From assembly GCA_964016885.1 (NCBI GenBank), contig OZ024743.1, positions 130,386,001-130,450,000 of the forward strand: a stretch of DNA of 64,000 nucleotides, in the 5' to 3' direction. The notes under the pieces were generated by a model, which had not been told where the DNA came from, did not search any database, and saw nothing but the letters and a program-made list of their open reading frames with translations. This DNA is from Eledone cirrhosa. Its lineage: Eukaryota. Of this stretch, positions 37,201 to 61,540 are shown one piece after another (the first letter of the stretch is position 1; each line of letters starts with the position of its first letter). The position numbers were made by a program, and so were the translations under genes.

Positions 37201-40200
37201 CCAAACACCAACCAGGAAACACCAAACAGCAAACACCAAACAGCAAACGCCAAACAGCAAACACAAACACCAAACACCAAGCACCAAGCACCAAGCACAA
37301 AACACCAAGCACCAAGCGCCAAGCACCAAACACCAAACACCAAACACCAAACACCAAACACCAATCACCAGACACCAGACACCAAACACCAAACAGCAAA
37401 CACCAAACACCAAACAGCAAACACCAAACACCAAACACCATGCACCCAGAACCAAGCACCAAGCACCAAACACCAAACACCAAGCACCAAGCACCAAACA
37501 CCAAACACCAAGCACCAAGCACCAAGCACCAAGCACCAAACACCATACACCAAGCACCAAGCACCAAACACCAAAAACCAATCACCAAGCACCAAAGAGC
37601 AAACACCAAGCCCCAAGCACCAAACACCAAACACCAAACACCAAACAACAAACACTAAACACCAAACACCAAACAGCAAACACCAAACACCAAATAGCAA
37701 ACACCAAACACCAACCAGGAAACACCAAACAGCAAACACCAAACAGCAAACGCCAAACAGCAAACACAAACACCAAACACCAAACACCAAGCACCAAGCA
37801 CCAAGCACAAAACACCAAGCACCAAGCGCCAAGCACCAAACACCAAACACCAAACACCAAACAGCAAACACCAATCACCAAATACCAGACACCAAACACC
37901 AAACAGCAAACACCAAACACCAAACAGCAAACACCAAACACCAAACACCAAACAGCAAACACGAAACAGCAAACACCAAACAGCAGACACCAAACAGCAA
38001 ACACCAAACAGCAAACACCAAACACCAAACACCAAACACCAAGCACCAACCACCAAACACCAAGCACCAAGCAACAAACACCAATCACCAAGCACCGAGC
38101 ACTAAAAACCAAACATCTAGCACCAAGCACCAAGCACCAAACACCAAGCACCAAGCACCAAGCAGCAAACACCAAGCACCAAAGACCAAGCCCCAAATAC
38201 CAAGCACCAAGCACCAAACACCAATCACCAGGCACCAAGCACCAAACACCAAGAACCAAGCACCAAGCACTAAACACCAAATACCAAGCACCAAGCACCA
38301 AACACCAAACACCAAGCACCAAGTACCAAACTCCAAACACCAAACACCAAGCACCAAGCACCAAATCCCAAGCACCAAACACCAAGCACCAATCACCAAA
38401 CACCAAACACCAAGCACCAAGCACCAAACACCAAAAACCAAGCACCAAGCACCAAGCACCAAACACCTAACGCCAAACACCGAAAACCAAGTACCAAGCA
38501 CCAAACACCAAGCACCAAGCGTCAAAGACCAAACACCTAGCACCAAGCACGAAACACCAAGCACCAAGCACCGAGCACCAAACACCAAGTACCAGGCACC
38601 AATCACCAAACACCAAGAACCAAGCACCAAACACCAGACAGCAAGCACCAAGCACCAAACACCAAACTCCAAGCACCAAGCACCAAACACCAAGCACCAA
38701 GCGCCAAACACCAAACACCAAGCACCAAGCACCAAACACCAAGCACCAACCACCAAGCACCAAACACCAAGCACCAAGCACCAAACACCAAGCACCAATC
38801 ACCAAACAGCAAACACCAAGCACCAAACACCAAACACCAAGCACCAAGCACCAAACACCAAGCACCAAGCACCAAACACCAAGCACCAAGCACCAAACAC
38901 CAAAAACCAATCACCAAGCACCAAAGAGCAAACACCAAGCCCCAAGCACCAAACACAAAACACCAAATACCAAATAGCAAACACTAAACACCAAACACCA
39001 AACAGCAAACACAAAACAACAAATAGCAAATACCAAACAGCGAACACCAAACACCAAACAGCAAACACCAAACACCAACCAGGAAACACCAAAGACCAAG
39101 CACCAAACACCAAGCACCAAGCCCCAAGCACCAAACACCAAGCACCAAGCACCAAACACCAAGCACCAAGCACCAAGCACCATGCACCAAACACCAAGCA
39201 CCAAGCACCAAACAGCAAACACCAAACAGCAAACACCAAACACCAAACACCAACCAGCAAACACCAAACACCAAACACCAAACAGCAAACACCAAACAGC
39301 AAACACCAAACAGCAAACACCAAACACCAAACACCAAACACCAAACGCCAAAAAGTAAACGCCAAACCCCAAACGCCAAACAGCAAATGCCAAACCCCAA
39401 GCGCCAAACACCAAAGACCAAGCGCCAAGCAACAAACACCAAACACCAAGCACCAAGCACCAAACACCAAACACCAAGCACCAAGTACCAAACACCAAAC
39501 ACCAAGCACCAAACACCAAACAACAAACGCCAAAAAGCAAACGCCAAACCCCAAACGCCAAACAGCAAACGCCAAGGACCAAACACCAAACACCAAGCGC
39601 CAAGCACCAAATACCAAACACCAAGCACCAAGCACCAAACACCAAACACCAAGGACCAATCACCTAACACCAAGCACCAAGCGCCAAACACCAAAAACCA
39701 AACACCTAGCACCAAGCACCAAGCACCAAACACCAAGCACCAAGCCCCAAGCACCAAACAGCAAGCACCCAGCACCATACACCAAACACCAAGCACCAAG
39801 CACCCAGAACAAAGCACCAAGCACCAAACACCAAACACCAAGCTCCAAGCACCAAACACCAAACACCAAGCACCAAGCACCAAGCACCAAGCACCAAACA
39901 CCAAACACCAAGCACCAAGCACCAAACACCAAGCACCAAGCGCCAAACACCAAACACCAAACACCTAGCACCAAGCACCAAGCACCGAACACCAAGCACC
40001 AAACACCAAGCACCAAGCACCAAGCACCAAGCACCAAGCACCAAACACCAATCACCAAGCCCCAAGCACCAAACACCAAGCACCAAGCACCAAACACCAA
40101 ACACCAAGCACCAAGCACCCAGAACCAAGCACCAAGCACCAAACACCAAACACCAAGCACCAAGCACCAAACACCAAACACCAAGCACCAAGCACCAAGC

Positions 40201-40230
40201 ACCAAGCACTAAACACCATACACCAAGCAC
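34300..40230 (+). repeat. Diverged tandem duplication, period ~3.1-3.2 kb
   Basis: Offsets are 3098 (34342/37440), 3183 (35616/38799; GCGTCAAAG 35336/38519) and 3169 (36883/40052). The copies differ by indels and substitutions. Confidence 0.8.
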
Positions 40231-43200
40231 CAAGCACCAATCACTAAACACTAAACACCAAGCACCAAGCACCAAACACAAACACCAAGCACCAAGTACC
40301 AAACTCCAAACACCAAACACCAAGCACCAAGCACCAAATCCCAAGCACCAAACACCATTCACCATAAAACAAACACCAAACACCAAGCATGAAGCACCAA
40401 GCACCAAATACCAATCACCAAGCACCAAAGAGCAAACACCAAGCCCCAAGCACCAAACACCAAACACCAAACACCAAACAGCAAACACTAAACACCAAAG
40501 ACCAAAGAGCAAACACCAAACACCAAATAGCAAACACCAAACACCAACAAGGAAACACCAAACAGCAAACACCAAACAGCAAACGCCAAACAGCAAACAC
40601 AAACACCAAACACCAAACACCAAACACCAAGCACCAAGCACAAAACACCAAGCACCAAGCGCCAAGCACCAAACACCAAACACCAAACACCAAACACCAA
40701 ACACCAATCACCAAACACCAGACACCAAACACCAAACAGCAAACACCAAACACCAAACAGCAAACACCAAACACCAAACACCAAACAGCAAACACCAAAC
40801 AGCAAACACCAAACAGCAAACACCAAACAACAAACAGCAAACACCAAACACCAAACACCAAGCACCAAGCAGCAAACACCAACACCAAGCAACAAGCACC
40901 AATCACCAAGCACCAAGCACTAAACACCAAACACCTAGCACCAAGCACCAAGCACCAAACACCAAGCACCAAGCACCAAGCACCAAACACCAAGCACCAA
41001 AGACCAAGCCCCAAATACCAAGCACCAAGCACCAAACACCAATCACCAGGCACCAAGCACCTAACACCAAGAACCAAGCACCAAGCACTAAACACCAAAC
41101 ACCAAGCACCAAGCACCAAACACCAAGAACCAAGCACCAAGCGCAAACACCGAACACCAAGCACCAAGCACCAAACACCAAGCACCAACCACCAAGCACC
41201 AAACACCAAGCACCAAGCACCAATCACCAAACACCAAGCACCAAGCACCAAACACCAAACATCAAGCACCAAGCACCAAACACCAAACTACAAGCACCAA
41301 GCACCAAACACCAAATACCAAGCACCAACCACCAACCACCAAGCACCAAACACCAAGAACCAAGCACCAAGCACCAAACACCAAGCACCAAATACCAAGC
41401 ACCAGACGCGAAGCACCAAGCACCAAGCACCAAAAACCAAGCACCAAGCTCCAAGCACCAAACACCAAGCACCAAACAACAAACACCAAGCACCAAGCAC
41501 CAAACACCAAGCACCAAGCGCCAAAAACCAAACAATAAGCACCAAGCACCAAATACCAAGCACCAAGCACCAAGCACCAAGCACCAAACACCAAACACCA
41601 AACACCAAACAGCAAACAGCAAACACCAAACACCAAACACCAAACAGCAAACGCCAAACATCAAACGCCAAACACCAAACGCCAAACAGCAAACGCCAAA
41701 CACCAAACGCCAAACAGCAAGCGCCAAGCACGAAACGCCAAACACCAAGCACCAAGCACCAAACACCAAACACCAAGCACCAAGCACTAAACGCCAAACA
41801 CCAAGCGCCAAGCACCAAGCACCAAACACCAAGCACCAAGCACCGAGCACCAGTAACCAAACACCGAGCACCAAGCACCAAGCACCAAACACCAAGCCCC
41901 AAGCACCAAACACCAACCAGCAAACACCAAACACCAAACACTAAAAAGCAAACACCAAACAGCAAACACCAAACAGAAACACCAAACACCAAACACCAAA
42001 CAGCAAACGCCAAGCACCAAACGCCAAAAAGCAAATGCCAAAACCCAAACGCCAAACAGCAAACACCATACCCCAAACGCCAAGCACCAAACACCGAACA
42101 CCAAGCACCAAGCACCAAACACCAAACACCAAGCACCAATCACCAAGCACCAAACACCAATCACCAAGCCCCAAGCACCAAACACCAAGCGTCAAGCACC
42201 AAACACCAAACACCAAGCACCAAGCACCCAGAACCAAGCACCAAGCACGAAACACCAAACACCAAGCACCAAGCACCAAACACCAAATACCAAGCACCAA
42301 GCACCAATCACCAAGCACCAAACAGCATACACCAAGCACCGAGCACCAAACACCAAAAACCAATCACCAAGCACCAAAGAGCAAACACCAAGCCCCAAGC
42401 ACCAAACACCAAACACCAAACACCAAACACTAAACAGCAAACACCAACCAGCAAACACCAAACAGCAAACACCAAACAGCAAACGCCAAACAGCAAACAC
42501 AAACACCAAACACCAAACAACCAAACACCAAGCACCAAACACCAAACACCAATCACCAGGCACCAAGCACAAAACACCAAGCACCAAGCTCCAAACACCA
42601 AACACCAAGCACCAACCACCAAGCACCAAGCACAAAGCACCAAGCACCAAACACAAAACACCAAGTACCAGTCACCAAGCACCAAACACCAAACACCAAA
42701 CACCAAACACCAAACAGCAAACACTAAACACCAAACACAAAACACCAAACACCAAACAGCAAACACCAAACACCAAACAGCAAACACCAAACACCAAACA
42801 CCAAACAGCAAACACCAAACAGCAAACACCAAACAGCAAACACCAAACAGCAAACAGCAAACACCCAACACCAAACACAAAGCACCAAGCACCAAACACC
42901 AAGCACCAAGCAACAAGCACCAATCACCAAGCACCAAACCCTAAACACCAAACACCAAGCACCAAGCACCAAGCACCAAACACCAAGCACCAAGCACCAA
43001 GAACCAAACGCCAAGCACCAAGCACCAAACACCAAGAACCAAGCACCAAGCACCAAGCACCAAAAACCAAGCACTAAGGACCAAGCACCACACACCAAGG
43101 ACCAAGCACCAAACACCAAACACCAAGCACCAAGCACTAAACACCAAACACCAAGCACCAAGCACCAAACACCAAACACCAAGCACCAAGTACCAAACTC

Positions 43201-46200
43201 CGAACACCAAACACCAGGCACCAAGCACCAAGAACCAAGCAGCAAACACCAAACACCAAGCTCCAAGCACCAAACACCAAACACCAAGCACCAAGCACCA
43301 AACACCAAATACCAAGCACCAAGCACTAAACACCAAACACCAAACACCAAGCACCAAGCACTAAACACCAAACACCAAGCACCAAGCACCAAACACCAAA
43401 CACCAAGCACCAAGTACCAAACTCCGAACACCAAACACCAGGCAACATGCACCAAGAACCAAGCAGCAAACACCAAACACCAAGCACCAAGCACCAAGCA
43501 CCAAACACCAAACACCAAACACCAAGCACCAAGCACCAAACACCAAGCACCAAGCGCCAAAGACCAAACACCAAGCACCAAGCATGAAACACCAAGCACA
43601 AAGCACCGAGCACCAAACACCAAGTACCAAGCACCAATCACCAAACACCAAGAACCTAGCAGCAAACACCAAACACCAAGCACCAAGCACCAAACACCAA
43701 ACACCAAGCACCAAGCACCAAACACCAAATACCAAGCACCAAGCACTAAACACCAAACACCAAGCACCAAGCACCAAGCACCAAGCACCAAACACCAAAC
43801 ACCAAACACCAAGCACCAGACACCAAGCACCAAGCACTAAGCACCAAGCACCAAAAACCAAGCACCAAGCTCCAAGCACCAAACACCAAGCACCAAACAC
43901 CAAACACCAAGCACCAAGCACCAATCACCAAGCACCAAGCACCAAATACCAAGCACCAAGCAACAAGCACCAAACACCAAACACCAAACACCAAACACCA
44001 AACACCAAGCCCCAAGCACCAAACACAAAACACCAAGCACCAAGCACCAAACACCAAACACCAAGCACCAACCACCAAAGACCAAATACCAAGCACCAAG
44101 CACCAGGCACCAAGCACCAAACACCAAGCACCAAGCACCAAGCACCAAACACCAAGCACCAAACACCAAGCACCAGACACCAAGCACCAAGCACCAAACA
44201 CCAAACAGCAAACACCAAACAGCAAACACCAAACAGCAAACACGAAACACCAAACACCAACCAGCAAACACCAAGCACCAAGCACTAAACAGCAAACACC
44301 AAGCACCAAGCACCAAGCACCAAACACCAAGCACCAAGCACCAAGCACCAAACACCAAGCACCAAGCACCAACCACCAAGCAGCAAGCACCAAGCACCAA
44401 GCACCAAACACCAAGCACCAAGCACCAAACACCAAACACCAAGCACCAATCACCAAACACCAAACACCAAGCACCAAGCACCAAACACCAAGCACCAAGC
44501 ACCAAAGAGAAAAAAACCAAGCACCAAGCATCAAACACCAAACACCAAACACCACACAGCAAACAGCAAACAGCAAACACCAAACAGCAAACACCAAATA
44601 GCAAACACCAAACAGCAAACACCAAACACCAAACAGCAAACACTAAACACCAAACACCAAGCACCAAGCACCAAGCACCAAACAACAAGCACCAAGCACC
44701 AAGCACCAAGCACCAAACACCAAACACCAAATGCCAAACACCAAACACCAAGCATCAAGCACCAAACACCAAACACCAAGCACCAAGCACCAAGCACCAA
44801 GCACCAAACACCAAGCACCAAGCAACAATCACCAAACACCAAACACCAGGCACCAAACACCAAACAGCAAACACCAATCACCAAACACCAAACACCAAAC
44901 AGCAAACACCAATCACCAAACAACAAACACCAAACACCAAACAGTAAACACCAAACACCAAACAGCAAACACCAAACACCAAACACCAAACAGCAAACAC
45001 CAAACACCAAACACCAAACACCAAACACCAAACAAACAGCAAACAGCAAACACCAAACAGCAAACAGCAAACACCAAACACCAAACAACAAACGCCAAAC
45101 AGCAAATGCCAGCCACCAGATGCCTAACAGCAAACGCCAAACACCAAACGCCAAACAGCAAACACCAAACACCAAACAGCAAACACCAAACACCAAACAC
45201 CAAATAGCAAACACCAAACAGCAAACACCAAACAACAAACACCAAACAGCAAACACCAAACAGCAAACAGCAAACACCAAACACCAAACACCAAGCACCA
45301 AGCACCAAACACCAAGCACCAATCAACAAGCACCAATCACCAAGCACCAAGCACTAAACACCAAACACCAAGCACCAAGCACCAAGCACCAAACACCAAG
45401 CACAAAGCACCAAGCACCAAACGCCAACCAACAAGCACCAAACACCAAGCACCAAGCACCAAGCACCAAACACCAAGCACCAAAGACCAAGCACCAAATA
45501 CCAAGCACCAAGCACCAAACACCAATCACCAAGCACCAAGCACCAAACACCAAGAACCAAGCACCAATCACTAAACACTAAACACCAAGCACCAAGCACC
45601 AAACACAAACACCAAGCACCAAGTACCAAACTCCAAACACCAAACACCAAGCACCAAGCACCAAATCCCAAGCACCAAACACCATGCACCATAAAACAAA
45701 CACCAAACACCAAGCATGAAGCACCAAGCACCAAATACCAAACACCAAACACCAAGCACCACATCAAACACCAAGCACCAAGCACCAATCGCCAAGCACC
45801 AAGCACCAAGCAACAAACACAAAGCACCAAACACCAAGCACCAAGCACCAAGCACCAAACACCAAGCACCAAGCACCCAACACCAAACACCAATCACCAA
45901 GCACCAAAGAGCAAACACCAAGCCCCAAGCACCAAACACCCAACACCAAACACCAAACATCAAACACCAATTACGAATCACCAAACAGCAAACAGCAAAC
46001 ACCAAACACCAAACACCAAGCACCAAGCACCAAACACCAAACACCAAGCACTAAGCACCAAACACCAAATACCAAGCACCAAGCACTAAACACGAAACAC
46101 CAAGCACCAAGCACCAAGCACCAAGCACCAAACACCAAGCACCAAACACCAAGCACCAAACACCAAGCACCAAGCACCAAGCACCAGACACCAAGCACCA

Positions 46201-49200
46201 AGCACCAAACACCAAGCACCAAACACCAAGCACCAAGCACCAAACACCAAACATCAAGCACCAAGCACCAAACACCAAACACCAAGCACCAAGCACCAAG
46301 CACCAAGCACCAAGCACCAAACACAAAGCACCAAGCACCAAACAGCAAACACCAAGCACCAAACACCAAACACCAAGTACCAAGCACCAAACACCAAACA
46401 CCAAGCACCAAACACCAAGCACCAAGCCCCAAGCACCAAACACCAAGCACCAAGCACCAAACACCAAGCACCAAGCACCAAGCACCATACACCAAACACC
46501 AAGCACCAAGCACCAAACAGCAAACACCAAACAGCAAACACCAAACACCAAACACCAACCGGCAAACACCAAACACCAAACACCAAACAGCAAACACCAA
46601 ACAGCAAACGCCAAACAGCAAATGCCAAACCCCAAACGCCAAACAGCAAACGCCAAGCGCCAAACACCAAACACCAAGCGCCAAGCACCAAATACCAAAC
46701 ACCAAGCACCAAGCACCAAGTACCAAACACCAAGCACCAATCACCAAACACCAAGCACCAAGTGCCAAACACCAAACACCAAACACCTAGCACCAAGTAC
46801 CAAGCACCAAACACCAAGCACCAAACACCAGGCACCAAGCACCAAGCACCAAACACCAAGCACCAAACACCAAGCACCAGACACCAAGCACCAAGCTCCA
46901 AGCACCAAGCACCAAAAACCAAGCACCAAGCTCCAAGCACCAAACACCAAGCACCAAACACCAAACACCAAGCACCAAGCACCAAACACCAAGCACCAAG
47001 CGCCAAACACCAAACACCAAGCACCAAGCACCAAATACCAAGCACCAAGCACCAAGCACCAAACACCAAACACCAAACACCAAACACCAAACACCAAGCA
47101 CCAAGCACCAAACACCAAACACCAAGCACCAAGCACCAAACACCAAACACCAAGCACCAAGCACCAAACACCAAATACCAAGCACCAAACACCAAGCACC
47201 AAGCACCAAGCACCAAACACCAAGCACCAAACACCAAGCACCAGACACCAAGCACCAAGCACCAAACACCAAGCACCAAACAACAAACACTAAGCACCAA
47301 GCACCAAACACCAAGCACCAAGCGCCAAACACCACACACCAAGCACCAAATACCAAGCACTAAACACCAAACACCAAGCACCAAGCACCAAACACCAAGC
47401 ACCAAACACCAAACAGCAAAAACCAAACACCAAACACCAAACAGCAAACAGCAAACACCAAACAGCAAACACCAAACAGCAAACACCAAACACCAAACAC
47501 CAACCAGCAAATACCAAACACCAAACACCAAACGCCAAACATTAAACGCCAAACACCAAACGCCAAACAGCAAACACCAAACACCAAATGCCAACCAGCA
47601 AGCACCAAGCACCAAACACCAAGCACCAAGCACCAAACACCAAACACCAAGCACCAAGCACCAAACACCAAACACCAAGCACCAAGCACCAAGCACCAAA
47701 CACCAAACACCAAACACCAAACAGCAAACACCAAACAGCAAACACCAAACAGCAAACACCAAATAGCAAACACCAAACAGCAAACAGCAAACACAAAACA
47801 CCAAACACCAAGCACCAAGCACCAAACACCAAGCACCAAGCAACAAGCACCAATCACCAAGCACCAAGCACTAAACACCAAACACCTAGGACCAAGCACC
47901 AAGCACCAAACACCAAGCACCATGCACCAAGCACCAAACACCAAGCACCAAAGACCAAGCACCAAATACCAAGCACCAAGCACCAAACACCAATCACCAA
48001 GTACCAAGCACCAAGTCCCAAGCACCAAACACCAAGCACCAATCACCAAACACCAAACACCAAGCACCAAGCACCAAACACCAAAAATCAAGTACCAAGC
48101 ACCAAGCACCAAACACCAAACGCCAAACACAAAATACCAAGCACCAAGCACCAAACACCAAGCACCAAGCGCCAAAGACCAAACACCAAAAACCAAGCAC
48201 AAAACACCAAGCACCAAGCACCGAGCACCAAACACCAAGTACCAAGCACCAATCACCAAACACCAAGCACCAAGCACCAAACACCAAACACCAAGCACCA
48301 AGCACCAAGCACCAAGCATCAAGCACCAAGCACCAAACACCAAGCACCAAGCACGAAGCACCAAACACAAAACAACAAGTACCAAGCACCAAACACTTAA
48401 CACCAAACACCAAGCACCAAGCACCAAACACCAAACACCAAGCACCAAGCACCAGACACCAAGCACCAAGCACCAAGCACCAGACACTAAGCACCAAGCA
48501 CCAAACACCAAGCACCAAACACCAAGCACCAAGCACCAAACACCAAACACCAAGCACCAAGCACTAAACACCAAACACCAAGCACTAAGCACCAAGCACC
48601 AAGCACCAAACACAAAGCACCAAGCACCAAACAGCAAACACCAAGCACCAAACACCCAACCCCAAGCACCAAGCACCAAGCACAAAACACCAAGAACCAA
48701 ACACCAAGCACCAAGCCCCAAGCACCAAACACCAAGCACCAAGCACCAAACACCAAGCACCAAGCACCAAGCACCATACACCAAACACCAAGCACCAAGC
48801 ACCAAACAGCAAACACCAAACAGCAAACACCAAACACCAAACACCAACCAGCAAACACCAAACACCAAACACCAAACAGCAAACACCAAACAGCAAACAC
48901 CAAACAGCAAACACCAAACAGCAAACGCCAAAAAGCAAACGCCAAACCCCAAACGCCAAACAGCAAATGCCAAAACCCAAACGCCAAACAGCAAACGCCA
49001 AGCGCCAAACACCAAACACCAAGCGCCAAGCACCAAACACCAAACACCAAGCACCAAACACCAAGTACCAAACACCAAACACCAAGCACCAAACACCAAA
49101 CAGCAAACACCAAAAAGCAAACACCAAGCCCCATACGCCAAACAGCAAATGCCAAACCCCAAACGCCAAACAGCAAACGCCAATCACCAAACACCAAACA

Positions 49201-49587
49201 CCAAGCGACAAGCACCAAACACCAAACACCAAGCACCAAGCACCAAACACCAAACACCAAGCACCAATCACCAGACACCAAACACCAAGCACCAATCACC
49301 AAACACCAAGCACCAAGCGCCAAACACTAAACACCAAACACCTAGCACCAAGCACCAAGCACCAAACACCAAGCACCAAACACCAAGCACCAAGCACCAA
49401 GCACCAAACACCAAGCACCAAACACCAAGCACCAGACACCAAGCACCAAGCACCAAGCACCAAGCACCAAAAACCAAGCACCAAGCTCCAAGCACCAAAC
49501 GCCAAGCACCAAACACCAAGCAGCACCAAGCACCAAACACCAAGCACCAAGCGCCAAACACCAAACACCAAGCACCAAGCACCAAAT

Positions 49588-49627
49588 ACCAAGCACCAAG
49601 CACCAAGCTTGGTGCTTGGTGCTTGGT
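49588..49627. other. Array inversion point: spacer-less 40-bp perfect palindrome centred on AAGCTT (49605-49610)
   Basis: ACCAAG CACCAAG CACCAAG | CTTGGTG CTTGGTG CTTGGT. The axis lies between 49607 and 49608. The first non-complementary pairs are T49587/G49628 and A49586/C49629. Confidence 0.98.
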
Positions 49628-50679
49628 GCTTGGTGTTTGGTGCTTGGTGCTTGGTGCTTGGTGTTTGGTGCTTGGTGCTTGGTGCTTGCTCTTTGGTGGT
49701 TGCTGTTTGGTGCTTGGTGTTTGGTGCTTGGTGCTTGGTGCTGGGTGGTTGGTGTTTGGTGCTTGGTGCTTGGTGTTTGGTGCTTGGTGCTTGGTGCTTG
49801 TTGTTTGGTGCTTGGTGCTTGGTCTTTGGTGCCTGGTGTTTGGTGTTTGGTGATTGGTGCTTGGTGCTTGGTGCTTGGTGTTTGGTGCTTGGTGCTTGGT
49901 GATTAGTGTTTGGTGCTTGGTGCTTGGGGTTTGGTGTTTTGTGCTTAGTGCTTGGTGTTTGGTGTTTGGTGTTTGCTGTTTGGTGTCTGCTTTTCGGTAT
50001 TTGGTGTTTGCTGTATGGTGTTTGCTGTTTCGTATTTGGTGTTTGCTGTTTGGTGTTTGGTGTTTGGTGTTTGGTGCTTGGTGTTTGGTGCCTGGTGCTT
50101 GGTGCTTGGTGTTTGGTGTTTGGTGTTTGGTACTTGGTGCTTGGTGTTTGGTGTTTGGTGCTTGGTGTCTGGTGTTTGGTGCTTGGTGTTTGGTGTTTGG
50201 TGCTTGGTGCTTGGTGTTGGTGTTTGGTGTTTGGTGCTTGGTGCTTGGTGTTTTGTGTTTGGTGCTTAGTGCTTGGTGTTTGGTGTTTGGTGCTTGGTGT
50301 TTGGTGTTTGGTGTTTGATGCTTGGTTTTTGCTGCTTGGTGCTTGGTGCTTGGTGCTTGGTGTTCTGTGTTTGGTGCTTGATGCTTGGTGCCTGGTGCTT
50401 GGTGCTTGGTGCTTGTTGTTTGGTGCTTGGTGCTTGGTGATTAGTGTTTGGTGCTTGGTGCTTGGTGTTTGGTGTTTGGTGTTTCGTGCTTGGTGTCTAG
50501 TGTTTGGGTTTTGGTGTTTGGTGCTTGGTGCTTGGTGTTTGGTGTTTGGTGCTTGGTGCTTGGTGTTTGGTGATTGGTGCTTGGTGTTTGGTGCTTGGTG
50601 CTTTGTGCTTGGTGTTTGGTGCTGGGTGCTTGGTGTTTGGTGCTTGGTGCTTGGTGTTTGGTGTTTGGTGCTTGGTACT

Positions 50680-53330
50680 TGGTGTTTGGTGTGTGATGCT
50701 TGGTGTTTGATGCTTGTTGCTTGGTGCTTGGTGTTTTGTGTTTGGTGTTTGGTGCTTTGTGTATGTACTTGGTGCTTGGTGTTTGGTGCTTGGTTCTTGG
50801 TGTTTGGTGCTTGGTGCTTGGTGCTTGGTGTTTGGTGCTTGGTGCTTGGTGTTTGGTGCTTGGTGTTTGGTGTTTGGTGCTTGGTGTTTGGTGCTTGGTG
50901 CTTGGTGCTTGGTGTTAAGTGTTTGGTGCTTGGTGCTTGGTGTTTGGTGCTTCGTGCTTGGTGCTTGGTGTTTGGTGCATGGTGCTTGGTGTTTGGGGCT
51001 TGGTGCCTGGTGCTTTGTGTTTGGTGCTAGGTGCTTGGTGCTTGGTCTTTGGTGTTTGGTGCTTGGTGCTTGGTGTTTGGTGCTAGGTGTTTGGTGCTTG
51101 GTGTTCGGTGCTTGGTGCTTGGTGCTTGGTGCTTGGTGTTAGGTGTTTGGTGCTTGGTGCTTGGTGTTTGATGTTTGGTCCTTGGTGCTTGGTGTTTGGT
51201 GTTTGGTGCTTGGTGCTTGGTGTTTCGTGTTTGGTGCTTGCTGCTTGCTGCTTGGTGTTTGGTGCTTGGTGATTGGTGCTTGGTGTTTGGTGCTTGGTGC
51301 TTGGTGTTTGGTGTTTCGTGCTATGTGCTTGGTGCTTGGTGCTTGGTGTTTGGTGCTTGGTGCTTGGTGTTTGGTGTTTGGTGCTTGATGCTTGGGGCCT
51401 GGTGTTTGGTGCTTGGTGCTTGGTGCTTGGTGTTTGGTGCTTGGTGCTTGGTGCTTGGTGTTTGGTGTTTGGTGTTTGGTGCTTGGTGTTTTGTGCTTGG
51501 TGCTTGTTGCTGGGTGGTTGGTGTTTGGTGCTTGGTGCTTGGTGTTTGGTGCTTGGTGCTTGGTGCTTATTGTTTGGTGATTGGTGCTTGGTGCTTGGTG
51601 CTTGGTGTTTGGTGTTTGGTGTTTGGTGCTTGGTGTTTGGTGCTTGGTGCTTGGTGCTTGGTTATTAGTGTTTGGTGCTTGGTGCTTGGGGTTTGGTGTT
51701 TGGTGCTTGGTGTTTGGTGTTTGGTGTTTGCTGTATGGTGTTTGCTGTTTCGTGTTTGGTGTTTGCTGTTTGGTGTTTAATGCTTGGTGCTTGGTGCTTG
51801 GTGTTTGGTGCTTGGTGTTTGGTGTTTGGCGTTTGCTGTTTGCTGTTTGTTGTTTGGTGCTTGCTGTTTGGTGCTTGGTGCTTGGTGCTTGGTGTTTGGT
51901 GGTTGGTGCTTGGTGATTAGTGTTTGGTGCTTGATGCTTGGGGTTTGGTGTTTTGTGCTTAGTGCTTGGTGTTTGGTGTTTGCCGTTTGGTGTCTGCTTT
52001 TTGGTATTTGGTGTTTGCTGTATGGTGTTTGCTGTTTCGTATTAGGTGTTTGCTGTTTGGTGTTTGGTGTTTGGTGTTTGGTGCTTGGTGTTTGGTGCTT
52101 GGTGCTTGGTGTTTGGTGTTTGGTGCTTGGTGTTTGGTGTTTGGTGCTTGGTACTTGGTGTTTGGTGTGTGAAGCTTGGTGATTGATGCTTGTTGCTTGG
52201 TGCTTGGTGTTTGCTGTTTGGTGTTTGGTGCTTGGTGTATGTACTTGGTGCTTGGTGCTTGGGGTTTGGTGCTTGGTTCTTGGTGTTTGGTGCTTGGTGC
52301 TTGGTGCTTGGTGTTTGGTGCTTGGTGCTTGGTGTTTGGTGCTTGGTGTTTGGTGTTTGGTGCTTGGTGTTTGGTGCTTGGTGCCTGTTGCTTGGTGTTA
52401 AGTGTTTGGTGCTTGGTGCTTGGTGTTTGGTGCTTCGTGCTTGGTGCTTGGTGTTTGGTGCATGGTGCTTGGTGTTTGGGGCTTGGTGCCTGGTGCTTTG
52501 TGTTTGGTGCTAGGTGCTTGGTGCTTGGTCTTTGGTGTTTGGTGCTTGGTGCTTGGTGTTTGGTGCTAGGTGTTTGGTGCTTGGTGTTCGGTGCTTGGTG
52601 CTTGGTGCTTGGTGCTTGGTGTTAGGTGTTTGGTGCTTGGTGCTTGGTGTTTGATGTTTGGTCCTTGGTGCTTGGTGTTTGGTGTTTGGTGCTTGGTGCT
52701 TGGTGTTTCGTGTTTGGTGCTTGCTGCTTGCTGCTTGGTGTTTGGTGCTTGGTGATTGGTGCTTGGTGCTTGGTGCTTGGTGCTTGGTGTTTGGTGCTTG
52801 GTGCTTGGTGTTTGGTGTTTGGTGCTTGGCGCTTGGGGCTTGGTGTTTGGTGCTTGGTGTTTGGTGCTTGGTGTTTGGTGCTTGGTGCTTGGTGCTTGGT
52901 GTTTGGTGTTTGGTGTTTGGTGCTTGGTGTTTTGTGCTTGGTGCTTGTTGCTGGGTGGTTGGTGTTTGGTGCTTGTTGCTTGGTGTTTGGTGCTTGGTGC
53001 TTGGTGCTTATTGTTTGGTGATTGGTGCTTGGTGCTTGGTGCTTGGTGTTTGGTGCTTGGTGCTTGGTGCTTGGTGTTTGGTGCTTGGTGCTTGGTGCTT
53101 GGTTATTAGTGTTTGGTGCTTGGTGCTTGGGGTTTGGTGTTTGGTGCTTGGTGTTTGGTGTTTGGTGTTTGCTGTATGGTGTTTGCTGTTTCGTGTTTGG
53201 TGTTTGCTGTTTGGTGTTTAATGCTTGGTGCTTGGTGCTTGGTGTTTGGTGCTTGGTGCTTGGTGTTTGGAGTTTGCTGTTTGCTGTTTGGTGTTTGGTG
53301 CTTGCTGTTTGGTGCTTGGTGCTTGGTGCT
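50680..53330 (-). repeat. Right-arm tandem duplication, period ~1441-1483 bp
   Basis: ORF pairs 50700/52176 (1476), 51087/52570 and 51175/52658 (1483), and 51581/53022 and 51672/53113 (1441). Shared markers GTATGTACTT, GTTAAGTG, GCTTATTG and GTTATTAGTG. Confidence 0.85.
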
Positions 53331-56300
53331 GGTTGGTTGGTGTTTTGTGCTTGGTGCTTGGTGTTTGGTGCTTGGTGCTTGGTGCTTGTTGTTTGGTGCT
53401 TGGTGCTTGGTCTTTGGTGCTTGGTGTTTGGTGTTTGGTGCTTGGTGCTTGGTGCTTGGTGTTTGGTGCTTGGTGCTTGGTGCTTGGTGTTTGGTGGTTG
53501 GTGCTTGGTGATTAGTGTTTGGTGCTTGATGCTTGGGGTTTGGTGTTTTGTGCTTAGTGCTTGGTGTTTGGTGTTTGCTGTTTGGTGTCTGCTTTTTGGT
53601 ATTTGGTGTTTGCTGTAAGGTGTTTGCTGTTTCGTATTTGGTGTTTGCTGTTTGGTGTTTAGTGTTTGGTGTTTGGTGTTTGGTGCTTGGTGCTTGGTGC
53701 TTGGTGTTTAGTGTTTGGTGTTTGGTGCTTGGTGTTTGGTGCTTGGTGCTTGGTGCTGGGTGGTTGGTGTTTGGTGCTTGGTGCTTGGTGCTTGGTGTTT
53801 GGTGCTTGGTGCTTGGTGCTTGTTGTTTGGTGCTTGGTGCTTGGTGCTTGGTCTTTGGTGCTTGGAGTTTGGTGGTTGGTGCTTGGTGCTTGGTGTTTGG
53901 TGTTTGGTGTTTGCTGTTTGGTGTTTGCTGTTTGGTGTCTGCTTTTTGGTGTTTGGTGTTTGCTGTATGGTGTTTGCTGTTTCGTATTTGGTTTATGCTG
54001 TTTGGTGTTTGGTGTTTGTTGTTTGATGCTGCGTGCTTGGTGTTTGGTTTTTTGTGCTTTGTGCTTGGTGCTTGGTGCTTGGTGTTTGGCATTTGGTGCT
54101 TGGTGCTTGGTGTTTGGTGCTTGGTGCTTGGTGCTTGGTGTTTGGTGTTTGGTGCTTGGTGCCTGGTGCTTGTTGTTTGGTGTTTGGTGCTTAGTGCTTG
54201 GTGTTTGGTGTTTGGTGCTTGGTGCTTGGTGGCTGGTGGTTGGTGCTTGGTGTTTGGTGTTTGGTGTTTGGTGCTTGGTGCTTGGTGCCTGGTGTTTGGT
54301 GCCTGGTGCTTGGTGCTTGGTGCTTGGTGCTTGGTCTTTGCTGCTTGGGGTTTGGTGTTTGGTGCTTGGTGCTTGGTGTTTGGTGCCTGGTGCTTGGTGC
54401 TTGGTGTTTGGTGTTTAATGCTTGGTGCTTGGTGCTTGGTGTTTGGTACTTGGTGCTTGGTGCTTGGTGTTTGGTGTTTGGCATTTGCTGTTTGCTGTTT
54501 GGTGTTTGGTGCTTGCTGTTTGGTGTTTGGTGTTTGGTGTTTGGTGTTTGGTGCTTGCTGTTTGGTGTTTGGTACTTGGAGCTTGGTGATTAGTGTTTGG
54601 TGCATGGTCCTTGGTGTTTGTTGTTTGGTGTTTGGTGCTTGGTGTTTGGTGCTTGGTGCTTGCTGTTTGGTGGTTGGTGCTTGGTGTTTGGTGTTTGGTG
54701 TTTGGTGCTTGGTGCTTGGTGTTTGGTCCTTGGTGCTTGGTGCTTGGTCATTGCTGCTTGGGGTTTGGTGTTTGGTGCTTGGTGCTTGGTGCTTGGTGTT
54801 TGGTGCTTGGTGCTTGGTGCTTGGTGTTTGGTGTTTGGTGCTTGCTGCTTGGTGCTTGGTGCTTGGTGTTTGGTGATTGGTGCTTGGTGCTTGGTGTTTG
54901 GCGTTTGCTGTTTGCTGTTTGCTGTTTGGTGTTTGCTGTTTGGTGTTTGCTGTTTGGTGTTTGGTGCTTGGTGCTTGGTGGCTGGTGTTTGGTGCTTGGT
55001 GTTTGGATTTTGGTGCTTGGTGCTTGGTGCCTGGTGTTTCGTGCTTGGTGCTTGGTGCTTGGTGTTTGGTGTTTGGTGCTTGGTGTTTGGTGTTTGGTAC
55101 TTGGTGCTTGGTGCTTGGTGCTTGGTGTTTGGTGCTTGGTGCTTGGTGATTGGTGTTTGATGCTGCGTGTCTTGGTGTTTGGTGTTTGGTGCTTGGTGCT
55201 TGGTGTTTGGTGTTTGGAGCTTGGTGCCTGGTGCTTGTTGTTTGGTGCCTGGTGCTTGTTTTTTGGTGTTTGGTGTTTGGTGCTTGGTGTTTGGTGCTTG
55301 GTGCTTGGTGCTTGGTGTTTGGTGCTTGGTGCTTGGTGGTTGGTGCTTGGTGTTAGGTGTTTGGTGCTTGGTGCTTGGTGTTTGATGTTTGGTCCCTGGT
55401 GCTTGGTGTTTGGTGTTTGGTGCTTGGTGCTTGGTGTTTGGTGTTTGGTGCTTGCTGCTTGGTGCTTGGTGTTTTGTGTTTGGAGTTTAGTGTTGGTGTT
55501 TGGTGCTTCGGTCTTGGTGCTTGGTGTTTGGTGCTTGGTGCTTGGTGTTTGGTGCTTGGTGCCTGGTGCTTGGTGTTTGGTGCTTGGTGCTTGGTGTTTG
55601 GTGATTGGTGCTTGGTGTTTGGTGCTTGGTGCTTGGTGCTTGGTGCTTGGTGTTAGGTGTTTGGTGCTTGGTGCTTGGTGTTTGATGTTTGGTGCTTGGT
55701 GCTTGGTGTTTGGTGTTTGGTTCTTGGTGCTTGGTGTTTGGTGTTTGGTGCTTGCTGCTTGCTGCTTGGTGTTTGGTGCTTGGTGATTGGTGCTTGGTGT
55801 TTTGTGCTTGGTGCTTGGTGTTTGGTGCTTGGTGCTTGCTGTTTGGTGTTTGGTGCTTGGTGCGTTGGACTTAGTGTTTGGTGTTTGGTGCTTGGTGTTT
55901 GGTGCTTGGTGTTTGGGGCTTGGTGTTCGGTGCTTGGTGCTTGGTGCTTGAGGCTTGGTGTTTGGTGTTTGGTGCTTGGTGCTTGGTGTTTGATGTTGGG
56001 TCCTTGGTGCTTGGTGTTTGGTCTTTGGTGCTTGGTGTTTGGTGTTTGGTGCTTGGTGCTTGATGTTTGGTGTTTGGTGCTTGGTGCTTGGGGCTTGGTG
56101 TTTGGTGCTTGGTGCTTGGTGTTTGGTGTTTGGTGCTTGGTGCTTGGGGCTTGGTGTCTGGTGCTTGGTGCTTGGAGCTTGGTGTTTAGTGTTTGGTGTT
56201 TGGTGCTTGGTGTTTGGTGCTTGGTGCTTGGTGCTGGGTGGTTGGTGTTTGGTGCTTGGTGCTTGGTGTTTGGTGCTTGGTGCTTGGTGCTTGTTGTTTG

Positions 56301-58989
56301 GTGCTTGGTGCTTGGTGCTTGGTCTTTGGTGCTTGGAGTTTGGTGGTTGGTGCTTGGTGCTTGGTGTTTGGTGTTTGGTGTTTGGTGTTTGCTGTTTGGT
56401 GTTTGGTGCTTGGTGCTTGGTGGCTGGTGTTTGGTGCTTGGTGTTTGGATTTTGGTGCTTGGTGCTTGGTGCCTGGTGTTTCGTGCTTGGTGCTTGGTGC
56501 TTGGTGTTTGGTGTTTGGTGCTTGGTGTTTGGTGTTTGGTACTTGGTGCTTGGTGCTTGGTGCTTGGTGTTTGGTGCTTGGTGCTTGGTGATTGGTGTTT
56601 GATGCTGCGTGTCTTGGTGTTTGGTGTTTGGTGCTTGGTGCTTGGTGTTTGGTGTTTGGAGCTTGGTGCCTGGTGTTTGCTGTTTGGTGTCTGCTTTTTG
56701 GTGTTTGGTGTTTGCTGTATGGTGTTTGCTGTTTCGTATTTGGTTTTTGCTGTTTGGTGTTTGGTGTTTGCTGTTTGGTGTTTGGTGTTTGGTGCTTGGT
56801 GCTTGGTCTTTGGTGCTTGGGGTTTGGTGTTTGGTGCTTGGTGCTTGGTGTTTGGTGCCTGGTGCTTGGTGCTTGGTTCTTGGCGTTTGCTGTTTGCTGT
56901 TTGCTGTTTGGTGCTTGCTGTTTGGTGTTTGGTGTTTGGTGTTTGGTGTTTGGTGCTTGCTGTTTGGTGTTTGGTGCTTGGTGCTTGGTGATTAGTGTTT
57001 GGTGCATGGTCCTTGGTGTTTGTTGTTTGGTGCTTGGTGCTTGGTGTTTGGTGCTTGGTGCTTGCTGTTTGGTGCTTGGTGCTTGGTGTTTGGTGTTTGA
57101 TGTTTGGTGCTTGGTGCTTGGTGTTTGGTGCTTGGTGCTTGGTGCTGGGTGTTTGGTGCTTGGTGCTTGGTGTTTGGTGCTTTGTGCTTGGTGCTTGGTG
57201 CTTGGTGTTTGGTCCTTGGTGCTTGGTGCTTGGTCTTTGGTGCTTGGGGTTTGGTGTTTGGTGCTTGGTGCTTGGTGTTTGGTGCTTGGTGCTAGGTGCT
57301 TGGTGCTTGGTGCTTGGTGTTTGGTGTTTGGTGCTTACTGCTTGGTGCTTGGTGTTTGGTGCTTGGTGCTTGCTGTTTGGTGTTTGGTGTTTGGTGCTTG
57401 GTGCTTGGTGTTTGGTGTTTGGTGTTTGGTGATTGGTGTTTGGTGCTTGGTGCTTGGTGTTTGGTGCTTGGTGCTTGGTGCTTGTTGTTTGGTGTTTGGT
57501 GCTTGGTGCCTGGTGCTTGTTGTTTGGTGTTTGGTGCTTAGTGCTTGGTGTTTGGTGTTTGGTGCTTGGTGCTTGGTGGATGGTGTTTGGTGCTTGGTGT
57601 TTGGTGTTTGGTGCTTGGTGCTTGGTGCCTGGTGTTTGGTGCCTGGTGCTTGGTGCATGGTGTTTGGTGTTTGGCGCTTGGTGTTTGGTGTTTGGTACTT
57701 GGTGCTTGGTGCTTGGTGCTTGGTGTTTGGTGCTTGGTGCTTGGTGCTGGGTGATTAGTGTTTGGTGCTTGGTGCTTGGGGTTTGCTGTTTGGTGCTTGG
57801 TGCTTGGTGTTTGGTGCTTGGTGTTTTGTGTTTGGTGTTTGGTGCTTGGTGTATGTACTTGGTGCTTGGTGCTTGGTGTTTGGTGCTTGGTGCTTGGTGT
57901 TTTGTGTTTGGTGTTTGGTGCTTGGTGTATGTACTTGGTGCTTGGTGTTTGGTGTTTGGTGCATGGTGCTTGATGTTTGGGGCTTGGTGCCTGGTGCTTG
58001 GTGTTTGGTGCTTGGTGCTTGGTGCTTGGTGTTTGGTGTTTGGTGCTTGGTGCTTGGTGTTTGGTGCTTGGTGTTTGGTGCTTGGTGTTCGGTGCTTGGT
58101 GCTTGGTGCTTGGTACTTGGTGTTAGGTTTTTGGTGCTTGGTGCTCGGTGTTTGATGTTTGGTCCTTGGTGCTTGGTGTTTGGTGTTTGGTGCTTGGTGC
58201 TTGGTGTTTCGTGTTTGGTGCTTGCTGCTTGCTGCTTGGTGTTTGGTGCTTGGTGATTGGTGCTTGGTGTTTGGTGCTTGGTGCTTGGTGCTTGGTGTTT
58301 GGTGTTTGGTGCTAGGTGCTTGGTGCTTGGTGCTTGGTGTTTGGTGCTTGGTGCTTGGTGTTTGGTGTTTGGTGCTTGGTGCTTGGGGCTTGGTGTTTGG
58401 TGCTTGGTGCTTGCTGTTTGGTGCTTGGTGCTTGGTGCTTTGTGCTTGGTGCTTGGTGTTAGGTGCTTGGTGCTTGGTGCTGGGTGGTTGATGTTTGGTG
58501 CTTGGTGCTTGGTGTTTGGTGCTTGGTGCTTTGTGCTTATTGTTTGGTGCTTGGTGCTTGGTGCTTGGTCTTTGGTGCTTGGTGTTTGGTGTTTGTGCTT
58601 GGTGCTTGGTGCTTGGTGTTTGGTGCTAGGTGCTTGACGCTTGGTGTTTGGTGCTTGGTGCTTGGTGCTTGGTGATTAGTGTTCGGTGCTTGGGGTTTGG
58701 TGTTCGGTGTTTGCTGTTTGGTGTTTGCTGTTTGGTGTCTGCTGTTTGGTGTTTGGTGTTTGCTGTATGGTGTTTGTTGTTTTGTGTTTCGTGTTTGCTG
58801 TTTGGTATTGGGTGCTTGGTGCTTGGTGCTTGGTGCTTGGTGCTTGGTGGCTGGTGTTTGGTGCTTGGTGTTTGGATTTTGGTGCTTGGTGCTTGGTGCC
58901 TGGTGTTTCGTGCTTGGTGCTTGGTGCTTGGTGTTTGGTGTTTGGTGCTTGGTGTTTGGTGTTTGGTACTTGGTGCTTGGTGCTTGGTG

Positions 58990-61540
58990 CTTGGTGTTTG
59001 GTGTTTGGTGCTTGGTGCTTGGGGCTTGGTGTTTGGTGCTTGGTGCTTGGTGCTTGGTGTTTAGTGTTTGGTGTTTGGTGCTTGGTGTTTGGTGCTTGGT
59101 GCTTGGTGCTGGGTGGTTGGTGTTTGGTGCTTGGTGCTTGGTGTTTGGTGCTTGGTGCTTGGTGCTTGTTGTTTGGTGCTTGGTGCTTGGTGCTTGGTCT
59201 TTGGTGCTTGGAGTTTGGTTGTTGGTGCTTGGTGCTTGGTGTTTGGGGTTTGGTGTTTGCTGTTTGGTGTTTGCTGTTTGGTGTCTGCTTTTTGGTGTTT
59301 GGTGTTTGCTGTATGGTGTTTGCTGTTTCGTATTTGGCTTTTGCTGTTTGGTGTTTGGTGTTTGCTGTTTGGTGTATGGTGTTTGGTGTTTGGTGCTTTG
59401 TGCTTGGTGCTTGGTGTTTGGCATTTGGTGCTTGGTGCTTGGTGTTTGGTGCTTGGTGCTTGGTGCTTGGTGTTTGGTGTTTGGTGCTTGGTGCCTGGTG
59501 CTTGTTGTTTGGTGTTTGGTGCTTAGTGCTTGGTGTTTGGTGTTTGGTGCTTGGTGCTTGGTGGCTGGTGTTTGGTGCTTGGTGTTTGGTGGTTGGTGCT
59601 TGGTGCTTGGTGCCTGGTGTTTGGTGCCTGGTGCTTGGTGCTTGGTGTTTGGTATTTGGTGCTTGGTGTTTGGTGTTTGGTCCTTGGTGCTTGGTGCTTG
59701 GTCTTTGCTGCTTGGGGTTTGGTGTTTGGTGCTTGGTGCTTGGTGTTTGGTGCCTGGTGCTTGGTGCTTGGTGTTTGGTGTTTAATGCTTGGTGCTTGGT
59801 GCTTGGTGTTTGGTGCTTGGTGCTTGGTGCTTGGTGTTTGGCGTTTGCTGTTTGCTGTTTGCTGTTTGGTGCTTGCTGTTTGGTGTTTGGTGTTTGGTGT
59901 TTGGTGTTTGGTGCTTGCTGTTTGGTGTTTGGTGCTTGGTGCTTGGTGATTAATGTTTGGTGCATGGTCCTTGGTGTTTGTTGTTTGGTGCTTGGTGCTT
60001 GGTGTTTGGTGCTTGGTGCTTGCTGTTTGGTGGTTGGTGCTTGGTGTTTGGTGTTTGGTGTTTGGTGCTTGGTGCTTGGTGTTTGGTGTTTGGTGCTTGC
60101 TGCTTGGTGCTTGGTGCTTGGTGTTTGGTGCTTGGTGCTTGGTGCTTGGTGTTTGGCGTTTGCTGTTTGCTGTTTGGTGTTTGGTGTTTGCTGTTTGGTG
60201 TTTGCTGTTTGGTGTTTGGTGCTTGGTGCTTGGTGGCTGGTGTTTGGTGCTTGGTGTTTGGATTTTGGTTCTTGGTGCTTGGTGCCTGGTGTTTCGTGCT
60301 TGGTGCTTGGTGCTTGGTGTTTGGTGTTTTGTGCTTGGTGTTTGGTGTTTGGTACTTGGTGCTTGGTGCTTGGTGCTTGGTGGTTGGTGCTTGGTGCTTG
60401 GTGTTTGGTGTTTGGAGCTTGGTGCCTGGTGCTTGTTGTTTGGTGCCTGGTGCTTGTTGTTTGGTGCTTGGTGCTTGGTGGTTGGTGCTTGGTGTTAGGT
60501 GTTTGGTGCTTGGTGCTTGGTGTTTGATGTTTGGTCCCTGGTGCTTGGTGTTTGGTGTTTGGTGCTTGGTGCTTGGTGTTTGGTGTTTGGTGCTTGCTGC
60601 TTGGTGCTTGGTGTTTTGTGTTTGGAGTTTGGTGCTTGGTGTTTGGTGCTTCGGTCTTGGTGCTTGGTGTTTTGTGCTTGGTGCTTGGTGTTTGGTGCTT
60701 GGTGCCTGGTGCTTGGTGTTTGGTGCTTGGTGCTTGGTGTTTGGTGATTGGTGCTTGGTGTTTGGTGCTTGGTGCTTGGTGCTTGGTGCTTGGTGTTAGG
60801 TGTTTGGTGCTTGGTGCTTGGTGTTTGATGTTTGGTGCTTGGTGCTTGGTGTTTGGTGTTTGGTGCTTGGTGCTTGGTGTTAGGTGTTTGGTGCTTGCTG
60901 CTTGCTGCTTGGTGTTTGGTGCTTGGTGATTGGTGCTTGGCGTTTTGTGCTTGGTGCTTGGTGTTTGGTGTTCGGTGCTAGGGGCTTGGTGCTTGGTGCT
61001 TGGTGTTTGGTGCTTGGTGCTTGCTGTTTGGTGTTTGGTGCTTGGTGCGTGGGACTTAGTGTTTGGTGTTTGGTGCTTGGTGTTTGGTGATTGGTGTTTG
61101 GGGCTTGGTGTTCGGTGCTTGGTGCTTGGTGCTTGGGGCTTGGTGTTTGGTGTTTGGTGCTTGGTGCTTGGTGTTTGATGTTGGGTCCTTGGTGCTTGGT
61201 GTTTGGTCTTTGGTGCTTGGTATTTGGTGTTTGGTGCTTGGTGCTTGATGTTTGGTGTTTGGTGCTTGGTGCTTGGGGCTTGGTGTTTGGTGCCTGGGGC
61301 TTGGTGTTTGGTGTTTGGTGCTTGGTGCTTGGGGCTTGGTGTCTGGTGCTTGGTGCTTGGTGCTTGGTGTTTAGTGTTTGGTGTTTGGTGCTTGGTGTTT
61401 GGTGCTTGGTGCTTGGTGCTGGGTGGTTGGTGTTTGGTGCTTGGTGCTTGGTGTTTGGTGCTTGGTGCTTGGTGCTTGTTGTTTGGTGCTTGGTGCTTGG
61501 TGCTTGGTCTTTGGTGCTTGGAGTTTGGTGGTTGGTGCTT
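58990..61540 (-). repeat. Right-arm duplicate of ~53650-56360 (offset ~5.14-5.36 kb)
   Basis: ORF pairs 53715/59068, 54597/59957, 55357/60499, 56018/61203 and 56193/61378. Shared markers GGTCCCTGG, GCTTCGGTCTTGG and GATGTTGGGTCC. Confidence 0.8.

What the first reader, a model, noticed from the sequence alone, without database searches (positions are those of the whole stretch)
49588..49627. Spacer-less strand inversion of the satellite creates a giant quasi-palindrome
Seen: the array flips orientation exactly at a monomer boundary with no inserted base (CACCAAG|CTTGGTG). The central GC (49607-49608) can be read as part of either arm and is the only self-complementary dinucleotide in the consensus repeat. 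At least 14.4 kb on each side are mutually complementary in almost any 7-bp register. Known analogues are the inversion point in the 177-bp repeat palindrome of Trypanosoma brucei minichromosomes and strand switches inside centromeric satellite arrays. Inference: the junction arose by 2-nt microhomology fold-back, template switching or end-joining. It could extrude a cruciform, act as a fragile site, or form the symmetry centre of a repeat-only chromosome domain.
Basis: partly seen in the sequence, partly recalled or inferred. Interest (0 to 1): 0.75.

Follow-up and report, generated by a model that had tools for sequence, protein, structure and literature searches.

The report
Copied inversion scar in giant satellite
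The spot where this repeat DNA reverses direction is real, but the same junction sits eleven times in one 14.6-million-base repeat array, so it is likely one old break-and-rejoin scar that was carried along by megabase-sized duplications, an ordinary feature rather than a unique chromosome landmark.

Summary
In detail: a 7-bp satellite flips strand at 49607|49608 with no insert and a perfect 40-bp palindrome. The interpretation mostly fails.

The arms are not mirror copies (about 85% alike, no shared 80-mer), so this is not a fold-back. The window lies in a 14.6-Mb array (G000:C4:128.82-143.42 Mb) in which I mapped 31 strand switches. Ten carry this junction with the same flanks (8 forward, 2 inverted). 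An eleventh has lost about 730 bp across the centre. Ten of the eleven pair with one shared opposite-type junction 105-256 kb away.

The copies differ pairwise by 0.25-1.5%, which argues against a library or assembly artefact. The centre is no more conserved than its flanks, and no copy has swapped an arm at the centre. Best reading: one end-joining or template-switch event, then passive copying in roughly 0.4-1.9 Mb tandem and inverted duplications. It is not a symmetry centre. Raw reads, cruciform formation and centromere status were not tested.

Closest known cases: conserved inversion sites in Tribolium satellites and strand switches in human HSat3 and beta-satellite. An earlier scan note on another copy in this array reached the same view.

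The parts
8..49608 (+). Forward arm: distal 49.6 kb of a 226-kb forward block of 7-bp satellite (CACCAAG/CACCAAA, about 1.5-kb higher-order repeat). The block begins at the partner tail junction at C4:130.209 Mb, outside the window.
49588..49627 (.). Perfect 40-bp palindrome (20-bp arms, no spacer) at the strand switch. This is junction type H0, present in 10 intact copies and 1 centre-deleted copy in the array.
49607..49608 (.). Central GC. It is a 2-nt overlap if the right-hand donor monomer was G-type and a blunt join if it was A-type.
49605..49610 (.). HindIII site created by the junction; lost in 2 of 11 copies (one point change, one deletion)
49607..64000 (-). Reverse arm: start of a reverse block of about 1.0 Mb of the same satellite, from a different sub-array than the forward arm
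52172..52177 (.). Second HindIII site, a point variant inside the reverse arm, found at 1.6-3.3 kb from the centre in most copies

Best explanation
The strand switch is real and recurs with the same flanks at eleven places in one 14.6-Mb satellite array; it is likely the scar of a single old end-joining or template-switch event between two different sub-arrays, likely multiplied passively by megabase-scale tandem and inverted duplications, with no function of its own. Shown: the junction, its ten intact copies and one centre-deleted copy, the shared partner junction at the other end of a 105-256 kb block, and the repeating order of sub-array classes along the array. Inferred: a single origin, a repair-type mechanism with 0-2 nt overlap, the duplication mechanism (unequal exchange or break-induced replication), and neutrality.
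For: Same junction and flanks at 10 sites on C4, 8 forward and 2 inverted, plus a derivative lacking about 80 bp left and about 650 bp right. One tail-type junction with shared flanks at 10 sites, pairing with 10 of 11 head copies at a median 186 kb. All 55 copy pairs differ, by 0.25-1.5%. Arms are colinear between copies over tens of kb (25.3 kb and 13.9 kb of chained exact matches) with no 200-bp match between the two arms of the window. Sub-array classes recur in the same order, and three probe pairs show a roughly 1.5-Mb inverted copy of the window's region at about 134.5-136 Mb. The centre differs from the majority at 1 of 400 letters, against 0.11-0.59% in the flanks. Overlap of 1-2 nt at 4 of 6 resolved junction types, P=0.009. 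In human HSat3 and beta-satellite, switch number scales with array length (10.64898/2026.07.22.740206, passage).
Against: Distance matrices of the head and tail copies are not congruent (Mantel r=-0.06, p=0.52), so strict co-duplication as one unit is not shown by phylogeny; the copies are star-like and power is low. Head and tail junctions are not clean reciprocal breakpoints, so a simple balanced inversion is not shown. The conservation test has few sites (400 letters). One of 11 copies did lose the centre asymmetrically, which is also what cruciform processing gives. Raw reads were not examined. Only about 1.0 Mb of the 14.6-Mb array was read, and two junction copies escaped the pattern searches, so further pairs of switches may be hidden.
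Confidence: 0.8

Rival explanations
1. The spacerless palindrome extrudes a cruciform in vivo, breaks, and so seeds the megabase duplications that multiply it (a self-spreading fragile site).
For: Predicted single-strand hairpin of -58 kcal/mol for +/-50 nt, against -23 to -51 for the other junction types and -2.6 for plain array. It is the most frequent junction type, with 11 of 31 switches. One copy carries an asymmetric central deletion, as PATRR alleles do (PMC3197554, passages).
Against: Nine of 11 copies keep the perfect centre, and none has a new partner arm joined at the centre. Deletion cover at the centre (1 of 10) is within the local background (mean 0.46 of 10). The weakly pairing tail junction was multiplied just as often (10 copies). 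The centre is about 50% GC, unlike the AT-rich PATRRs (general knowledge). The centre-deleted copy still folds to -152 kcal/mol over +/-150 nt.
Confidence: 0.08
2. The junctions are selected structural landmarks (macro-dyad symmetries) of a centromeric or pericentromeric domain, as proposed for Tribolium.
For: Large interstitial satellite block at 34-38% of a 379-Mb contig. Conserved, repeated inversion sites resemble those of Tribolium madens (PMC13081366, abstract and passages).
Against: No excess conservation of the centre. Irregular spacing of 0.43-1.85 Mb. One switch per about 470 kb, against thousands of sites in Tribolium. All junction hits are on one contig. No centromere data.
Confidence: 0.06
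3. The junction or its multiplicity is a library or assembly artefact (fold-back chimeric reads, collapsed or duplicated haplotypes).
For: Raw reads were not examined. The array has at least one 200-N gap, so long-range order may be partly wrong. Three runs of one sample hold 64-69% of the sampled words of the 2-kb junction region, but they may be the source sample and the share does not isolate the junction.
Against: A fold-back chimera gives exact mirror arms, whereas here the longest arm-to-arm match within 2.9 kb is 68 bp. Eleven copies with private substitutions and indels in both orientations exceed two haplotypes. No N lies in the stretches fetched around the copies.
Confidence: 0.04
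4. The same junction formed independently many times because GC is the only possible microhomology in the repeat.
For: GC overlap also occurs at junction type H1. Random head joins recreate the central hexamer in 3% of draws.
Against: All copies share rare flanking variants on both sides for hundreds to thousands of bases, which independent joins would not.
Confidence: 0.02

Closest known systems
Conserved inversion sites and macro-dyad symmetries in Tribolium madens TmSat1/TmSat2 (PMC13081366; abstract and passages) and T. freemani TfSat01/TfSat03 (PMC12581902; passages)
   Same: Satellite sub-arrays in opposite orientation joined at a few junction types that recur with 98-99% identity; hairpin potential predicted, function untested.
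   Different: There: thousands of sites on all chromosomes, blocks of kb to 75 kb, and a diverged subunit at the inversion point. Here: 31 mapped switches in one array, blocks of 14 kb to 1.3 Mb, a spacerless join of ordinary monomers, and copies traceable to megabase duplications.
Strand switches in human HSat3B5 (chr9) and beta-satellite arrays; 1.7-Mb inversion in the chr1 alpha-satellite array (10.1101/2021.07.12.452052, passages; 10.64898/2026.07.22.740206, passages)
   Same: Multi-megabase simple-sequence satellite with many strand switches, read by the authors as by-products of array expansion (switch number correlates with array length, r=0.90).
   Different: Unrelated sequence and far lower switch density. 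The passages I read do not give junction sequences or copy relationships.
Trypanosoma brucei minichromosome 177-bp repeat palindrome (as described in PMC3978658, passages; the original paper was not held)
   Same: Tandem repeat with an inversion point.
   Different: There, one central inversion point organises a 50-150 kb chromosome. Here, one of many switches, off-centre, inside a 379-Mb contig with non-satellite flanks.
Palindromic AT-rich repeats PATRR11/22 (PMC3197554, passages)
   Same: Spacerless palindrome with a centre-deleted, asymmetric allele.
   Different: PATRR11 is a near-perfect AT-rich palindrome of about 450 bp with measured translocation rates. Here the perfect part is 40 bp at about 50% GC and most copies are intact.

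Membership tests
Satellite strand switch amplified with its array | Orientation change between arrays of one satellite | tested here: met
Satellite strand switch amplified with its array | Same junction recurs with shared flanks and private changes | tested here: met
   11 copies, pairwise 0.25-1.5%
Satellite strand switch amplified with its array | Present in raw reads of independent individuals | not tested
   No reads were laid; one search lists runs only
Fold-back inversion (breakage-fusion-bridge or hairpin type) | Arms are mirror copies of the same sequence | tested here: not met
   No shared 80-mer; longest match 75 bp in the window, 68 bp within 2.9 kb
Balanced simple inversion (head and tail junction reciprocal) | Rejoining the four arms restores two native repeat contexts | tested here: not met
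   Paralogous predecessors of the tail-junction arms do not match the head-junction arm ends; later turnover or loss at the breaks could hide reciprocity
Microhomology-mediated join | Short overlap shared by both donors | tested here: inconclusive
   This junction: 2 or 0 nt. Other types: 1, 2, 2, 1, 0, 0 nt and one unresolved; enriched over random
Tribolium-type centromeric macro-dyad | Inversion site conserved across many copies | tested here: met
   but no more conserved than its flanks
Tribolium-type centromeric macro-dyad | Thousands of sites in (peri)centromeric regions of all chromosomes | tested here: not met
   All junction hits on C4 only
Tribolium-type centromeric macro-dyad | Centromeric location | not testable with these tools
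   No CENP-A, methylation or cytology data
T. brucei minichromosome palindrome | Single central inversion point of a repeat-built small chromosome | tested here: not met
   31 switches, 379-Mb contig, non-satellite flanks
Cruciform fragile site (PATRR-like) | Long near-perfect AT-rich palindrome | tested here: not met
   20-bp perfect arms, about 50% GC
Cruciform fragile site (PATRR-like) | Excess breakage or central deletion | tested here: inconclusive
   1 of 11 copies; local background 0.46 of 10 copies per base

The most novel reading that the evidence does not exclude
The spacerless GC-centred palindrome is an active cruciform that breaks and launches megabase-long copy-and-paste events, so the junction drives the growth and inverted architecture of its own 14.6-Mb array; the centre-deleted copy is a defused product of that process.
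Probability: 0.08. Interest if true: 0.65.

Novelty: new member of a known kind. Interest (0 to 1): 0.25.

Why it matters
As a landmark it does not matter: it is a passenger. Its use is as a marker. A few unique junctions in otherwise featureless repeat show that this array grew by duplications of 0.4-1.9 Mb, some inverted and placed megabases away. They also show that a spacerless quasi-palindrome with arms of hundreds of kb can persist through about ten duplications with the centre intact in 9 of 11 copies. That is a useful counter-case when repeated, conserved inversion sites are read as evidence of function, as has been suggested for Tribolium. If cruciform-driven breakage were shown, it would link a DNA structure to satellite growth.

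Tried and rejected
1. Fold-back origin: rejected, because the arms are not mirror copies.

2. My first idea that the 94-kb stretch between the copies at 134.43 and 134.53 Mb is a local fold-back: rejected. The 134.53 copy is the sister of the window copy (0.25% apart, three shared indels) and belongs to an inverted copy of about 1.5 Mb.

3. Exact reciprocity of head and tail junctions: not found. An un-inverted ancestral state near 129.63 Mb was sought and not found.

4. Congruence of head and tail copy distances: none.

5. The first tail-junction pattern found 0; looser patterns were needed, and two copies were found only by bisection.

6. The binomial values assumed 6 of 8 overlaps. I dropped them after and used only the 6 resolved types, leaving out H0 and T1.

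7. In one search, one of two reference choices mis-aligned the deleted copy; the figure quoted uses the 134.43 reference, and one search supports the deletion with three other references.

8. Small word shares (0.13-0.28) in other organisms and marine metagenomes are not evidence of anything.

9. Literature: 'satellite'+'CACCAAG' gave 780 papers, and none of the 20 listed concerned this repeat. The five-term search gave 0. These two searches do not show that the satellite is undescribed. Searches were seen as listings only, apart from the papers cited. No supplements were read; those of the human centromere papers may hold junction-level analyses like this one.

10. Whether the satellite occurs on other contigs is open. 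A sub-array marker gave 803 hits, of which the 100 listed are all on C4.

Full report
Observation. The whole window is one 7-bp satellite (CACCAAG/CACCAAA, about 83% matches). It runs forward over 8-49608 and reverse over 49607-64000, and skews flip there. The switch has no inserted base, creates a HindIII site at 49605, and gives an exact palindrome with 20-bp arms, the only one with arms of 4 bp or more in the window. The second HindIII site at 52172 is real.

The arms are not mirror images. In strict mirror register 10% of the first 50 and 38% of the first 200 positions mismatch. With gaps, five 1-kb blocks are 84-87% identical. Both arms have a higher-order repeat near 1.5 kb. 68% of the forward arm's 80-mers recur within that arm, but none of the reverse arm's 80-mers occurs in it. 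Two different sub-arrays were therefore joined. This excludes a fold-back read chimera and a hairpin fold-back origin. A 20-bp perfect stem arises in 4.3% of random joins at this register, so it is mildly long, not extraordinary.

The junction is not unique. The window is G000:C4:130,386,001-130,450,000, in a 3.0-Gb assembly with C4 at 378.8 Mb. The 28-nt junction motif occurs at 9 places, and a looser pattern adds a tenth; all lie on C4 between 130.44 and 142.89 Mb. All ten share flanking variants on both sides, 8 in the window's orientation and 2 inverted. An eleventh site, at 131.69 Mb, has the same outer flanks but lacks about 80 bp on the left and about 650 bp on the right of the centre. 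All 55 pairs differ, by 0.25-1.5% in aligned blocks within 1.5 kb, the higher values partly from repeat-unit turnover. That is too many distinct versions for two haplotypes or a sequencing error.

Array map. The satellite spans 128.823-143.422 Mb, with non-satellite DNA outside. Pattern searches and bisection gave 31 strand switches in strict head/tail alternation. They are: this junction 10 times plus its deleted form, one tail junction 10 times, a second head junction 3 times, a second tail junction twice, three single tail junctions, and two switches at a different 22-bp repeat (one a 100-kb island, one at a 200-N gap). About 4.7 Mb is forward and 9.8 Mb reverse. The map may miss pairs of switches: about 1.0 Mb of satellite was read, and two copies escaped the patterns.

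Megabase duplication. Ten of the 11 head copies have the common tail junction 105-256 kb away (median 186 kb), and same-orientation copies are 0.43-1.85 Mb apart. Arms are colinear between copies over tens of kb. The window's forward arm chains 25.3 kb of exact matches of 200 bp or more with the 134.53 copy and 13.9 kb with the 136.17 copy, and none with its own opposite arm (reverse arms). Shared 70-mers among 48 probes show the same order of sub-array classes recurring along the array. Probes at 129.0/135.8, 129.62/135.35 and 130.02/134.97 Mb match best in opposite orientation (0.39-0.43), which marks an inverted copy of about 1.5 Mb that includes the window's junction. Two results run against the simplest picture. 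Head and tail distance matrices are not congruent (Mantel r -0.06, p 0.52). The two junctions are not clean reciprocal ends of one balanced inversion. The block between them may be an inversion with loss at the breaks, or an inverted insertion.

How the join was made. Using paralogous repeat copies as stand-ins for the donors, six junction types resolve to overlaps of 1, 2, 2, 1, 0 and 0 nt, with no inserted bases. Random opposite-strand joins give 1 nt or more in 16.6% and 2 nt or more in 2.5% of draws. Four of 6 and 2 of 6 each have P about 0.009 (small sample, donors inferred). This favours end-joining or template switching with minimal overlap. One further type was unresolved; both were left out of the count.

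Function or fragility. A single strand folds into a long hairpin (-58 kcal/mol for 100 nt, against -2.6 for plain array), as any head-to-head join of this repeat will to some degree (-23 to -51 for the other types). Among the 10 intact copies the central 40 bp differ from the majority at 1 of 400 letters. The flanks differ at 0.11-0.59%, so there is no sign of extra conservation or decay, with low power. One of 10 compared copies has the centre deleted, against a local mean of 0.46. No copy has a different arm joined at the centre. The deleted copy resembles centre-deleted PATRR alleles (PMC3197554, passages), but one case does not show a hotspot. Centromere status, cruciform extrusion and read support were not tested. 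Three runs of one sample hold 64-69% of the sampled words of the region, which does not isolate the junction.

Comparison. Strand switches inside satellite arrays are known. There are over 200 in human HSat3B5 and beta-satellite arrays (10.1101/2021.07.12.452052, passages), and their number scales with array length and is read as a by-product of expansion (10.64898/2026.07.22.740206, passages). Tribolium madens and T. freemani have thousands of inversion sites of a few conserved types, for which function and passive spread are both proposed (PMC13081366, abstract and passages; PMC12581902, passages). The T. brucei minichromosome has one central inversion point (PMC3978658, passages), which does not describe this case. 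An unreviewed scan note on the copy at 134.53 Mb reached the same conclusion. I saw it after forming my reading, and it is not independent evidence.

Verdict. A real feature and an ordinary kind: one old junction copied eleven times as the array grew by megabase duplications (confidence 0.8). Interest 0.25; new member of a known kind. The boldest open reading is that the palindrome itself triggers the duplications (probability 0.08).

Noticed in passing
L137:1313-7037 (G000:C4 about 128.816-128.822 Mb): Six tRNA-Arg genes or pseudogenes (five TCG, one GCG) in tandem end about 0.2 kb before the left end of the satellite array.
   Followed up: partly
L109-L111, L080, L123, L124 (G000:C4:140.036-140.137 Mb): A 100-kb island inside the array: an AT-rich unit repeating about every 6.1 kb, followed by a repeat of about 22 bp. 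The same 22-bp-repeat border recurs at 137.41 Mb beside a 200-N gap, where a second island is probably collapsed.
   Followed up: partly
L057 (G000:C4:131.693 Mb): Copy of the junction with an asymmetric deletion of about 730 bp across the palindrome centre, rejoined with a 1-nt overlap.
   Followed up: yes
G000:C4 about 134.47-136.0 Mb versus 128.9-130.5 Mb: An inverted duplicate of about 1.5 Mb of the window's region lies 4-7 Mb away inside the same array.
   Followed up: partly
L054-L055 (G000:C4:129.212-129.226 Mb): A 14-kb reverse block, the shortest in the array. Its head junction recurs at 130.017 and 134.981 Mb.
   Followed up: partly
window 1-49607: The forward arm has long stop-free frames on the + strand as a by-product of the 7-bp unit (frames of 300-720 codons seen in L109 and L137); no evidence that they are genes.
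   Followed up: no
L043:1568+ (G000:C4 about 145.0 Mb) and L136:1344+: A 1204-codon open frame and a 230-codon open frame in flanking DNA, probably retroelement-derived; not searched.
   Followed up: no
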